Below are positions 53,664 through 53,903 of a DNA stretch of 64,000 nt, piece by piece. The notes beneath the pieces are model-generated. The model was not told where the DNA came from and did no database searches. It was given only the letters and a program-made list of their open reading frames with translations. Position 1 is the stretch's first letter; every line of letters begins with the position of its first letter. Location of the stretch: the NCBI RefSeq assembly GCF_013167455.1, contig NZ_CP038328.1; one strand, 5' to 3'. The DNA comes from Escherichia coli O157:H7. GTDB lineage: Bacteria > Pseudomonadota > Gammaproteobacteria > Enterobacterales > Enterobacteriaceae. Both the position numbers and the translations under genes were made by a program.

Positions 53664-53674
53664 AAATAAAAAAA

Positions 53675-53700
53675 TCCCGCAGAGTTAGCGGAGCTGCGGG
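53675..53700 (-). terminator. Hairpin with A-run (minus-strand intrinsic terminator) immediately after I
   Basis: AAAAAAA-CCCGCAG-N11-CTGCGGG on the plus strand, equivalent to hairpin plus U-run on the minus strand. Confidence 0.4.
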
Positions 53701-53708
53701 AGAGAACG

Positions 53709-53828
53709 ATGAAGATTAACGTTATGGAGTTATTTTTCAGGCATCAAAAAAGTAATGCAGCGTCATTATTGCGGCTACAGGCAATTGCCGGAAATGTGAA
53801 GAGTTTCAGAAATTTTATTCCGTCATGA
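53709..53828 (+). CDS. Candidate 39-codon ORF in a 240-bp insertion between tail genes I and J
   Basis: ATG with GGGAGAG RBS; MKINVMELFFRHQKSNAASLLRLQAIAGNVKSFRNFIPS; in lambda, J follows I directly. Confidence 0.3.
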   Translation: MKINVMELFFRHQKSNAASLLRLQAIAGNVKSFRNFIPS

Positions 53829-53830
53829 CA

Positions 53831-53861
53831 CAGGCACCCTCCGGGGTGCCTGTTGTTTTCT
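53831..53861 (+). terminator. Intrinsic terminator-like hairpin after the I-J small ORF
   Basis: CAGGCACCC-TCCG-GGGTGCCTG (9-bp stem) followed by TTGTTTTCT. Confidence 0.5.
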
Positions 53862-53903
53862 GGCATAAACAGATTCAGACATCAGACAGGAGAGGGGGAC
53901 AGA

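What the first reader, a model, noticed from the sequence alone, without database searches (positions are those of the whole stretch)
53664..53903. Terminator-flanked mini-gene inserted between tail genes I and J
In lambda, J follows I directly. Here a 240-bp insertion carries a 39-codon ORF (53709..53828) with an RBS. It is bracketed by a hairpin plus A-run that would terminate minus-strand transcripts and by a 9-bp-stem hairpin plus U-run on the plus strand. That layout looks like an autonomous small transcription unit (micropeptide or sRNA) inside the tail operon.
Basis: partly seen in the sequence, partly recalled or inferred. Interest (0 to 1): 0.6.

Follow-up and report, generated by a model that had tools for sequence, protein, structure and literature searches.

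The report
Prophage sRNA PasB/EcOnc22 between tail genes
The 240-bp spacer between tail genes I and J holds an already-described, Hfq-binding small regulatory RNA gene (EcOnc22 in E. coli O157 Sakai, PasB in EPEC) that is transcribed antisense to the tail operon; the 39-codon ORF on the other strand is not a conserved gene.

Summary
The sequence features are real: a 240-bp I-J spacer, a 39-codon ORF, a left hairpin with an A-run, and a right hairpin with a U-run.

- **What it is.** The spacer is base-for-base identical to the I-J spacers of Sakai prophages Sp15, Sp14 and Sp11. There, Hfq-CRAC, CLASH reads and a northern (~85 nt, destabilised in Δhfq) define the sRNA EcOnc22/23/24 on the strand opposite the tail genes. 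It ends at the left terminator. EPEC PasB (83 nt, Hfq-dependent, 37 RIL-seq partners) sits at the same I-J position and aligns with it at 74% identity.
- **The ORF.** It fails a conservation test. ATG is ACG or ACA in 11 of 35 spacer variants, and frameshifts truncate most of the others.
- **The right hairpin.** It occupies the position where lambda's own 60-bp I-J spacer has a hairpin, so it is probably ancestral and not part of the mini-gene.
- **Distribution.** The sRNA plus promoter block occurs in 34% of complete E. coli genomes and is never annotated.

The function of the sRNA is unknown. Verdict: an already known element. New here: the PasB–EcOnc22 link, a candidate promoter, and the sodC-carrying variants.

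The parts
52986..53663 (+). Tail assembly gene I (left neighbour, not part of the element). RefSeq annotates a shorter 579-nt version in Sakai.
   Evidence: ORF list. Annotated as tail assembly protein I in VT1-Sakai, Sakai and E2348/69.
53668..53758 (-). sRNA gene of the PasB / EcOnc22-24 family, about 78-91 nt. The 3' end at about 53668 is well supported. The 5' end lies between about 53758 (predicted from the -10 hexamer) and about 53742-53745 (edge of the Hfq peak, start of the CLASH reads, and the aligned PasB 5' end).
   Evidence: CLASH read GCCTGAAAAATAACTCCATAACGTTAATCTTCA, labelled EcOnc22 2902717-2902749, is the reverse complement of window 53710-53742. With that mapping the Hfq-CRAC peak 2902714-2902774 (+) equals window 53745..53685 on the - strand. 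The spacer is identical in Sakai Sp15, Sp14 and Sp11. PasB aligns, with its 3' end at window 53668. Fold energy -20.3 kcal/mol, z = -4.1.
53668..53700 (-). Rho-independent terminator of the sRNA: CCCGCAG (53700-53694), loop (53693-53683), CUGCGGG (53682-53676), A, then U7 (53674-53668).
   Evidence: Terminator scan. Seven stem pairs and the U-run are invariant in 18 diverse variants, while the loop varies in sequence and length. The PasB northern probe AATCCCGCAGTGATCGCGGAGCT lies on this element.
53711..53720 (-). Candidate seed GUUAAUCUUC: a conserved single-stranded stretch just upstream of the terminator.
   Evidence: UYRAUCUUY is found by pattern in 16 of 18 aligned variants; the other two have CUAAUCUUC. 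It is conserved across the 35 spacer variants. It is mostly unpaired in the MFE fold. Zhu et al. 2026 propose the PasB seed at the same place.
53726..53734 (-). (A-R-N)3 repeat AAAAAUAAC, a candidate contact for the distal face of Hfq.
   Evidence: Runs of 3-5 consecutive A-R-N triplets occur at the same relative place in 17 of 18 variants although the sequence differs. A run this long arises in 0-4% of shuffles for each of those variants.
53765..53770 (-). Predicted -10 hexamer of the sRNA promoter. It is AATAAT here, and TATAAT, TATCAT or GATAAT in other variants. The -35 is poor in this variant; E2348/69 and L031 have TTCACA at a 16-nt spacing.
   Evidence: Read from the alignments. The consensus promoter scan does not flag it. 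No TSS data were available.
53791..53829 (.). Near-invariant block upstream of the sRNA promoter, AAAATGTGAAGAnnTTCAGAAnTTTTATTCnGTCATGA. It contains a CRP-like TGTGA-N6-TCAGA (53795-53810) and an A/T-rich UP-like tract. It is a presumed regulatory region.
   Evidence: Apart from the terminators, it is among the best-conserved stretches of the spacer, together with the short seed motif. The part up to TTTTTAT is kept with the sRNA in the 342-bp variants, which replace everything to its right. The CRP-like pattern matches only here in the 64 kb, but 41% of shuffles give at least one match.
53830..53861 (+). Plus-strand intrinsic terminator-like hairpin (10 bp) with a U-run, at the position of lambda's I-J hairpin. 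It is not part of the sRNA unit.
   Evidence: Terminator scan. A compensatory C:G to U:A change occurs in 12 variants, and wobble variants favour plus-strand folding 5 to 1. The lambda 60-bp spacer has AAACCGCC-TGCG-GGCGGTTT followed by TGTCATTT.
53709..53828 (+). 39-codon ORF, judged non-coding. It lies antisense to the sRNA and its promoter.
   Evidence: Not conserved. No PHROG match. Not annotated by PGAP in any listed complete E. coli genome.
53904..57377 (+). Tail tip / host specificity gene J (right neighbour). GTG start, with GGAGAGGGGG at 53890-53899 as the Shine-Dalgarno sequence.
   Evidence: ORF list and sequence. tblastn of the J N-terminus on related loci. Alignment with lambda J.

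Best explanation
The I-J spacer carries a 'moron'-type sRNA gene on the minus strand. It is EcOnc22 in the O157 Sakai nomenclature and a divergent member of the EPEC PasB family.

Transcription probably starts from a sigma-70 promoter whose -10 is AATAAT (53770-53765). It runs antisense to the tail operon and stops at the intrinsic terminator immediately after the I stop codon (3' end about 53668). The product is a ~80-90-nt RNA.

The RNA binds Hfq. I infer binding through its U7 tail and an (A-R-N)3 tract. I also infer that it acts in the lysogen as a base-pairing regulator of host or prophage mRNAs, using the conserved single-stranded GUUAAUCUUC just upstream of the terminator.

- Shown, from published experiments on this identical sequence: the transcript, its strand, its approximate size, Hfq binding and Hfq-dependent stability.
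- Inferred: the promoter, the seed, the mode of Hfq contact, the targets, and regulation by the conserved upstream block (possibly CRP).

The plus-strand 39-codon ORF is a chance ORF. The plus-strand hairpin at 53830-53861 is an intercistronic terminator-like hairpin at the position of lambda's. By established knowledge of lambdoid late transcription, Q-modified polymerase would read through it.
For: 1. The spacer is 100% identical to the I-J spacers of Sakai Sp15, Sp14 and Sp11 and to VT1-Sakai.
2. Tree et al. 2014, Table S2, lists EcOnc22/23/24 in Sp15, Sp14 and Sp11: Hfq-CRAC peaks on the + chromosomal strand (the tail genes are on -), northern ~85 nt, destabilised in Δhfq. The J-I intergenic regions of Sp11 and Sp15 rank 48 and 49 among Hfq-bound intergenic regions.
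3. CLASH reads labelled EcOnc22/23/24 have the sequence of window 53742-53710 on the minus strand. This fixes both strand and position.
4. PasB of E2348/69 (83 nt, minus strand, northern-validated, log2FC -6.8 in Δhfq, 37 RIL-seq partners) lies between tail assembly protein I and gpJ. It aligns with the window: same 3' end, 63 of 85 aligned positions identical.
5. The conservation pattern fits an sRNA and not a protein. The terminator stem and U-run are invariant, the loop is variable, a seed-like block and ARN repeats are conserved, a -10 hexamer keeps A2 and T6, and the middle is rich in indels.
6. The ORF is not conserved.
7. The fold is more stable than shuffles (z = -4.1).
Against: - No TSS data could be read here. 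The predicted primary transcript (91 nt) is longer than the Hfq-peak, CLASH and PasB 5' ends suggest (about 75-80 nt), so either the promoter assignment or a processing step is unresolved.
- The consensus promoter scan finds no promoter, and the -35 is poor in this variant.
- The terminator stem shows no covariation, only invariance.
- No target is validated. The only CLASH hybrids I could retrieve rest on 1-2 reads with weak statistics.
- There is no Rfam family for this RNA.
- The CRP-like site is not statistically significant on its own. Its centre would lie near -44.5, which is not a canonical activating position.
Confidence: 0.88

Rival explanations
1. The unit is a plus-strand micropeptide gene. 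The 39-codon ORF 53709-53828 would be translated from its GGGAGAG Shine-Dalgarno sequence, and the transcript would end at the 53830-53861 terminator.
For: The ORF, the Shine-Dalgarno-like sequence and the downstream terminator exist. About 8 of 35 variants keep a 39-41-aa frame with similar ends. One GenBank phage record (1720a-02) annotates a hypothetical protein that overlaps the end of I and the start of the spacer.
Against: - The start codon is ACG or ACA in 11 of 35 variants, and frameshifts truncate most of the others to 7-31 codons.
- There is no PHROG hit.
- PGAP annotates nothing here in any listed genome, out of 1825 genomes that carry the element.
- No plus-strand promoter was found.
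- Half of the Shine-Dalgarno sequence is buried in the hairpin stem.
- Hfq reads in this intergenic region are about 90-fold biased to one strand. That strand matches the orientation of the only EcOnc peaks called here.
Confidence: 0.03
2. A second, plus-strand sRNA or a 3'-UTR-derived RNA of the I message covers the conserved block 53791-53829 and ends at the 53830-53861 terminator.
For: The block and hairpin are the best-conserved part of the spacer. A U-rich tract precedes a strong terminator, which is the layout of an Hfq-binding module. Wobble variants favour folding on the plus strand.
Against: - No EcOnc peak on the sense strand is listed at any I-J spacer.
- No plus-strand promoter was found.
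- The 342-bp variants keep the block up to TTTTTAT with the minus-strand sRNA but swap the rest of the block and the hairpin. The left part of the block therefore travels with the sRNA promoter and not with the hairpin.
- Lambda has a hairpin at the same place without the block.
Confidence: 0.07
3. The RNA acts mainly in cis, as an antisense RNA. It would pair with the I-J junction of the late tail message, of its own or a co-resident lambdoid prophage. Through RNase III cleavage or head-on transcriptional interference it would lower J expression or phage yield.
For: The gene is perfectly complementary to the late transcript and is fixed at this junction in every close relative examined: 77 of 77 loci have a spacer of at least 234 bp. 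Genomes carry up to 10 copies, so cross-talk between prophages is possible. Lambda's oop RNA is a precedent (my own knowledge, not tested here).
Against: - The RNA does not overlap the I or J coding sequences or the J ribosome-binding site. It ends 5 nt after the I stop and lies about 145 nt upstream of the J start.
- PasB has 37 trans partners in RIL-seq, 30 of which appear to be CDS or 5'UTR regions by my reading of an unlabelled column.
- The internal sequence is highly variable, which suits trans-target diversification and is neutral for a cis role.
- No experiment addresses a cis role.
Confidence: 0.15
4. The spacer is a non-functional leftover or recombination linker between tail-gene modules, and its conservation reflects recent spread only.
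For: The element is confined to E. coli-type lambdoid prophages. Many copies are at least 99% identical. The terminator stems show invariance and no covariation.
Against: - Variants diverge to about 70-75% identity yet keep the same functional islands: terminator, U-run, seed, ARN tract, -10 and upstream block.
- The RNA is expressed and binds Hfq in two pathotypes.
Confidence: 0.03

Closest known systems
EcOnc22 / EcOnc23 / EcOnc24 (Tree et al. 2014, E. coli O157:H7 Sakai prophages Sp15, Sp14, Sp11)
   Same: Identical DNA: the 240-bp spacer matches all three Sakai loci exactly. Strand and position match through the CLASH read sequence. Hfq-bound, ~85 nt, destabilised without Hfq.
   Different: Nothing differs at the sequence level. 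The flanking 6 kb of the window is only 97.5% identical to Sakai Sp15, so this is a sister prophage. The published coordinates are 135 bp lower than those of the current RefSeq record NC_002695.2.
PasB (Pearl Mizrahi et al. 2021, EPEC E2348/69 prophage PP6; Zhu, Shabalina and Storz 2026 preprint)
   Same: Same position (I stop, then the sRNA on the opposite strand, then J). Same terminator stem and U-run, and the same 3' end. Same seed-like block (UUGAUCUUC against UUAAUCUUC). Same -10 position. Similar size (83 nt). Hfq-dependent.
   Different: Only 74% identical over the RNA, with a different internal sequence and therefore probably different targets. Neither paper lists EcOnc22-24 as PasB homologues. 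The word-size-28 search used for bacterial genomes would probably miss this variant.
Morons of lambdoid phages (Juhala et al. 2000), including the sodC gene at this same I-J site
   Same: Extra DNA sits between two late-operon genes, with its own terminator and probably its own promoter, and is expressed from the prophage. In 16 related loci the same site carries a minus-strand Cu,Zn superoxide dismutase gene.
   Different: The cargo here is a non-coding RNA. Its promoter is predicted, not mapped.
Anti-sRNAs AgvB and AsxR, and HnrS (EcOnc10-12), other prophage-encoded Hfq sRNAs of EHEC
   Same: Prophage-encoded, multicopy, Hfq-binding short RNAs located within late regions.
   Different: They occupy different loci: AgvB and AsxR lie next to PR' and the lysis genes, and HnrS has different coordinates in the late genes. 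There is no Rfam match to AgvB or AsxR in the spacer. Sponge activity has not been shown for EcOnc22 or PasB.
Lambda I-J intergenic region
   Same: Same gene order. A plus-strand G+C-rich hairpin followed by a T-rich tract lies shortly before J.
   Different: Lambda's spacer is 60 bp and has no sRNA gene, no minus-strand terminator and no conserved upstream block.

Membership tests
PasB / EcOnc22-24 sRNA family | The gene lies between tail assembly gene I and tail tip gene J of a lambdoid prophage, on the strand opposite to them. | tested here: met
   same arrangement in the window, in Sakai Sp11, Sp14 and Sp15, and in E2348/69 PP6.
PasB / EcOnc22-24 sRNA family | Sequence homology to the described RNAs. 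| tested here: met
   Exact identity to the three Sakai loci. The CLASH read sequence of EcOnc22 is found at 53742-53710 on the minus strand. 63 of 85 aligned positions are identical to PasB.
PasB / EcOnc22-24 sRNA family | Rho-independent terminator with a U-tract of at least 4 at the 3' end. | tested here: met
   A 7-8-bp stem plus U7, invariant across variants.
PasB / EcOnc22-24 sRNA family | A discrete ~80-85-nt transcript that binds Hfq and depends on it for stability. | not testable with these tools
   Taken from the literature for the identical sequence (Tree 2014 Table S2) and for PasB (Pearl Mizrahi 2021). No expression data could be analysed here.
Moron (autonomous transcription unit in a phage late operon) | Own promoter upstream and own terminator downstream of the inserted gene. 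| tested here: inconclusive
   The terminator criterion is met. A conserved -10-like hexamer is present, with a good -35 in some variants. The consensus scan finds no promoter in the window variant, and the TSS is not mapped.
Small protein (micropeptide) gene | The reading frame, start codon and length are conserved among homologous loci. | tested here: not met
   ATG is lost in 11 of 35 variants and frameshifts occur in most others. There is no PHROG match.
Anti-sRNA family AgvB / AsxR (Rfam RF02702, RF02703) | Match to the covariance models, and a conserved ~42-nt 3' region next to PR'. | tested here: not met
   No Rfam match at E <= 1 in 53000-54500. The locus is different.
CRP-activated promoter (class I or II) | A TGTGA-N6-TCACA site centred at -41.5, or at -61.5, -71.5 and so on, relative to the TSS. 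| tested here: inconclusive
   The left half-site is perfect and the right half is 4 of 5 (AAATGTGA-N6-TCAGA, 53792-53810), and it is invariant in the 35 short spacer variants. The pattern is not rare by chance. Its centre is about -44.5 from the predicted TSS. PasB is higher in overnight LB than in DMEM, which is compatible but not specific.
Hfq class II-type sRNA (distal-face ARN binding) | An (A-R-N)n tract in addition to the U-rich 3' tail. | tested here: inconclusive
   A 3-5-triplet ARN run occurs at a conserved position in 17 of 18 variants. No binding-face data exist.

The most novel reading that the evidence does not exclude
The most novel reading not excluded is a dual-function RNA. 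Besides its trans targets, it would pair with the complementary I-J junction of late tail transcripts, its own and those of the up to 9 other copies or incoming relatives. That pairing would set J dosage or interfere with competing lambdoid phages. Its expression would be tied to host physiology, through cAMP-CRP or another factor that binds the near-invariant TGTGA-N6-TCAGA block. The I-J junction would then be a dedicated, recombination-exchangeable cargo slot, holding the sRNA alone or the sRNA plus sodC, with a shared regulatory cassette.
Probability: 0.12. Interest if true: 0.5.

Novelty: already known. Interest (0 to 1): 0.2.

Why it matters
The element itself is already in the literature as an Hfq-binding prophage sRNA of unknown function.

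What this check adds is modest:

- **A link between two names.** EcOnc22-24 of EHEC and PasB of EPEC are variants of one family, fixed at the I-J junction. Neither naming paper records this link.
- **A wider distribution.** The family is broader than the published PasB survey suggests. The sRNA plus promoter block is present in 1825 of 5426 complete E. coli genomes, at up to 10 copies, and is never annotated.
- **An anatomy for experiments.** It has a defined layout: terminator, seed-like GUUAAUCUUC, ARN tract, -10, and a near-invariant upstream block with a CRP-like site.
- **A cargo slot.** The same slot carries the sodC virulence moron in related prophages.

These points could guide target and regulation studies, and the annotation of this RNA in E. 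coli genomes.

Tried and rejected
1. **First coordinate mapping was wrong.** I mapped EcOnc22 using NC_002695.2 coordinates, which put the Hfq peak on the right hairpin (53820-53880, minus strand). That did not fit a terminator or the ~85-nt size. The sequences of the CLASH reads showed that the published coordinates are 135 bp lower than the current RefSeq coordinates. The correct mapping is w = 2956459 - x.
2. **HnrS** (66 nt, up to nine copies) looked like a candidate because of its copy number. It is EcOnc10-12, at other loci.
3. **AgvB and AsxR anti-sRNAs** were rejected. They lie at the PR' region, and the spacer has no Rfam hit.
4. **Rfam** gave nothing in 53000-54500 at E <= 1.
5. **PHROGs** gave nothing significant for the 39-aa and 40-aa ORF products.
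6. **The consensus promoter scan** found no promoter on either strand of the spacer. The promoter proposal rests on alignment only.
7. **RNAalifold** found no conserved structure beyond the terminator, and no covariation in it.
8. **PasB RIL-seq targets could not be extracted.** Phrase searches of the 40-part supplementary table failed, and the one part I read covered arcZ only. No target list was obtained.
9. **Sy et al. 2020** dRNA-seq and Term-seq tables are not held, so the TSS remains unmapped.
10. **A plus-strand promoter** for a second sRNA was looked for by eye in the conserved block. None was convincing.
11. **A Fur-box reading** of the block gives 13 of 19 matches in the common variant and 10 of 19 in the window, by my hand count. 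I judged it weaker than the CRP-like reading because the block lies upstream of the -35.

Full report
**1. The observation**

Gene I ends at 53663 (TGA). J begins with GTG at 53904. The spacer between them is 240 bp.
- the 39-codon ORF at 53709-53828;
- a left hairpin, CCCGCAG / CTGCGGG, preceded by an A-run, which the scan reads as a minus-strand terminator;
- a right 10-bp hairpin at 53830-53853 followed by TGTTTTCT, which the scan reads as a plus-strand terminator.

So the sequence features are as described. One background statement is inexact. Lambda has a 60-bp I-J gap with a hairpin of its own, so about 180 bp are extra here.

**2. Where the window comes from**

A 440-bp query spanning the spacer is 100% identical to phage VT1-Sakai. 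It is 84-99% identical to about 130 Stx-converting and related E. coli phages. The 240-bp spacer occurs in 801 of 5426 complete E. coli genomes by megablast, with a median of 3 copies. The left 167 bp occur in 1825 of 5426 genomes by blastn, with up to 10 copies. PGAP annotates nothing under any listed match.

**3. What is known at this site**

Table S2 of Tree et al. 2014 lists EcOnc22 (Sp15), EcOnc23 (Sp14) and EcOnc24 (Sp11). They are homologous Hfq-CRAC peaks on the chromosomal + strand, with a ~85-nt northern band that is destabilised in Δhfq. In Sakai the tail genes of these prophages are on the - strand, and the three peaks sit in the J-I intergenic regions.

My first mapping used current RefSeq coordinates and put the peak on the right hairpin. 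That mapping was wrong. The CLASH supplement of Waters et al. gives the read sequence for EcOnc22 2902717-2902749, GCCTGAAAAATAACTCCATAACGTTAATCTTCA. This is the reverse complement of window 53710-53742. A second hybrid ends at 2902774, which corresponds to window 53685, and confirms the mapping. The published coordinates are therefore 135 bp lower than those of NC_002695.2. With the correct mapping the Hfq peak covers window 53745-53685 on the minus strand, directly upstream of the left terminator. The spacer is base-for-base identical in Sp15, Sp14 and Sp11, so these experiments apply to the window sequence.

A 2021 review still lists the targets of EcOnc22 as unknown.

**4. The link to PasB**

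PasB was found by RIL-seq in EPEC E2348/69. It is 83 nt, on the minus strand at 1466343-1466261, in prophage PP6. Its northern probe is AATCCCGCAGTGATCGCGGAGCT. In the RefSeq record these coordinates fall between the tail assembly protein (ends at 1466255) and gpJ (starts at 1466496).

The locus aligns with the window spacer along its whole length. The PasB 3' end corresponds to window 53668 and its 5' end to about 53745. The RNAs are 74% identical. PasB is strongly Hfq-dependent, has 37 RIL-seq partners, and is more abundant in overnight LB than in DMEM.

Neither Pearl Mizrahi's Table S6 nor the 2026 Zhu/Storz preprint names EcOnc22-24 as homologues. The preprint's genome search used word size 28, which would probably miss this variant.

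**5. Comparative anatomy**

I collected 77 IMG/VR loci whose I protein is at least 96% identical to the window's. Every one has an I-J spacer of at least 234 bp: 234-260 bp in most, 342-343 bp in 8, and 848-852 bp in 16.

An alignment of the 35 distinct short spacers shows islands of conservation in an indel-rich background:
- the left stem arms and the A-run;
- GAAGATTAA, which is the sRNA's UUAAUCUUC;
- an A-run;
- a hexamer that reads AATAAT, TATAAT, TATCAT or GATAAT on the minus strand, always keeping A2 and T6;
- the block AAAATGTGAAGAnnTTCAGAAnTTTTATTCnGTCATGA;
- the right hairpin and its T-run.

Other results on the sRNA itself:
- RNAalifold finds only the terminator stem, with 7 invariant pairs and a variable loop.
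- A run of 3-5 A-R-N triplets sits at the same relative place in 17 of 18 variants, despite different sequences.
- The window RNA folds at -20.3 kcal/mol, z = -4.1, leaving most of the seed-like block unpaired.

**6. The ORF**

At the aligned start codon, 11 of 35 variants have ACG or ACA. Among the rest, frameshifts cut the frame to 10-31 codons in most. Only about 8 variants keep 39-41 codons. PHROGs gives no hit. The ORF is not a conserved gene.

**7. The right hairpin**

It carries a compensatory C:G to U:A change in 12 variants. G.U-containing variants fold better on the plus strand in 5 cases, against 1 the other way. It is therefore a conserved structure that probably acts in plus-strand RNA.

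Several results argue that it is the resident I-J hairpin and not the end of the inserted unit:
- Lambda has a different hairpin plus a T-rich tract at the same place. The simple scan does not flag the lambda hairpin.
- The 342-bp variants keep the sRNA and the upstream block up to TTTTTAT, but replace the rest of the block and the hairpin with a different sequence carrying another hairpin.
- No Hfq peak is listed on the sense strand at any I-J spacer.

Its role is inferred only. It may be a terminator or RNA-stability element for transcripts that are not antiterminated.

**8. Long variants**

The 851-bp spacers carry a minus-strand Cu,Zn superoxide dismutase (sodC) gene with its own terminator. 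It replaces the sRNA promoter and the upstream block but keeps the sRNA body and terminator. The I-J junction is thus a cargo slot.

**9. Regulation**

The near-invariant block contains AAATGTGA-N6-TCAGA, a perfect CRP left half-site and a 4-of-5 right half-site. It is the only match in the window, but 41% of shuffles also give at least one match. Its centre would be near -44.5 from the predicted TSS, which is not a canonical activating position.

The expression pattern is compatible with cAMP-CRP control but not specific to it: PasB is higher in overnight LB, while CRP-repressed Spot 42 is higher in DMEM. I rate this a hypothesis at about 0.25.

**10. Verdict**

The spacer is a known Hfq-dependent prophage sRNA gene, EcOnc22 of the PasB family, on the minus strand.

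The remaining unknowns are the exact 5' end, the promoter's regulator, the targets, and any cis-antisense effect on the tail message.

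Noticed in passing
L012, L016, L019, L025, L030, L038, L042, L044, L046, L050, L053, L059, L060, L069 and others (I-J spacers of 848-852 bp): In 16 related prophage loci the I-J spacer carries a minus-strand Cu,Zn superoxide dismutase (sodC) gene with its own terminator. It replaces the sRNA promoter and upstream block but keeps the sRNA body and terminator. The sRNA there may be silent, or expressed in another way.
   Followed up: partly
L035, L036, L062, L072, L075, L080, L082, L083 (I-J spacers of 342-343 bp): A third spacer type keeps the sRNA and the CRP-like block up to TTTTTAT. It replaces the right hairpin with about 180 bp of unrelated sequence that has another strong hairpin (AAAACCCCGGTATC...GATACCGGGGTTT) and a 60-codon plus-strand ORF of unknown status.
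   Followed up: partly
window 53872-53889; L010 and L052 spacers: The J leader contains a 7-nt unit, CAGACAT or CAGACAG. It is present about twice in the window and four times in L010 and L052, a 14-nt expansion just upstream of the J Shine-Dalgarno sequence. This copy-number variation might affect J translation.
   Followed up: no
window 53904-57377 versus L002 (Sakai Sp15, NC_002695.2 2899218-2902690): J is an intact frame in the window (about 1157 aa from the GTG start). In Sakai Sp15 it is annotated as two overlapping CDS (ECs_2943 and ECs_2944), and likewise in Sp14 (ECs_2720), and its span is one base shorter. This suggests a frameshifted J in those cryptic prophages. The window is only 97.5% identical to Sakai Sp15 over 6 kb, although the spacer is identical.
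   Followed up: partly
window 20682-20733 (-), 27579-27753 (+), 30669-30915 (+), 31692-31864 (+): Rfam gathering-threshold hits elsewhere in the window are DicF, sok (CssrC), three tRNAs and STnc100. The 2026 preprint proposes STnc100 as a relative of PasD. These are other known prophage RNA genes, unrelated to the finding.
   Followed up: no
Sakai chromosome coordinates around 2.17-2.90 Mb: Coordinates in Tree 2014 and Waters 2017 are 135 bp lower than those of NC_002695.2 at Sp15. Direct use of the published EcOnc coordinates on the current RefSeq record therefore misplaces these sRNAs.
   Followed up: yes
L005 1246-1305 (lambda 15445-15504): Lambda's own I-J spacer folds into a 10-bp G+C-rich hairpin followed by a T-rich tract (-21 kcal/mol for the 60 nt). 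This is a possible intercistronic terminator or stabiliser. I did not find it discussed in the papers read.
   Followed up: partly
window 53904: J starts with GTG in the window-type spacers and with ATG in many other variants. The start codon co-varies with the type of J leader.
   Followed up: no
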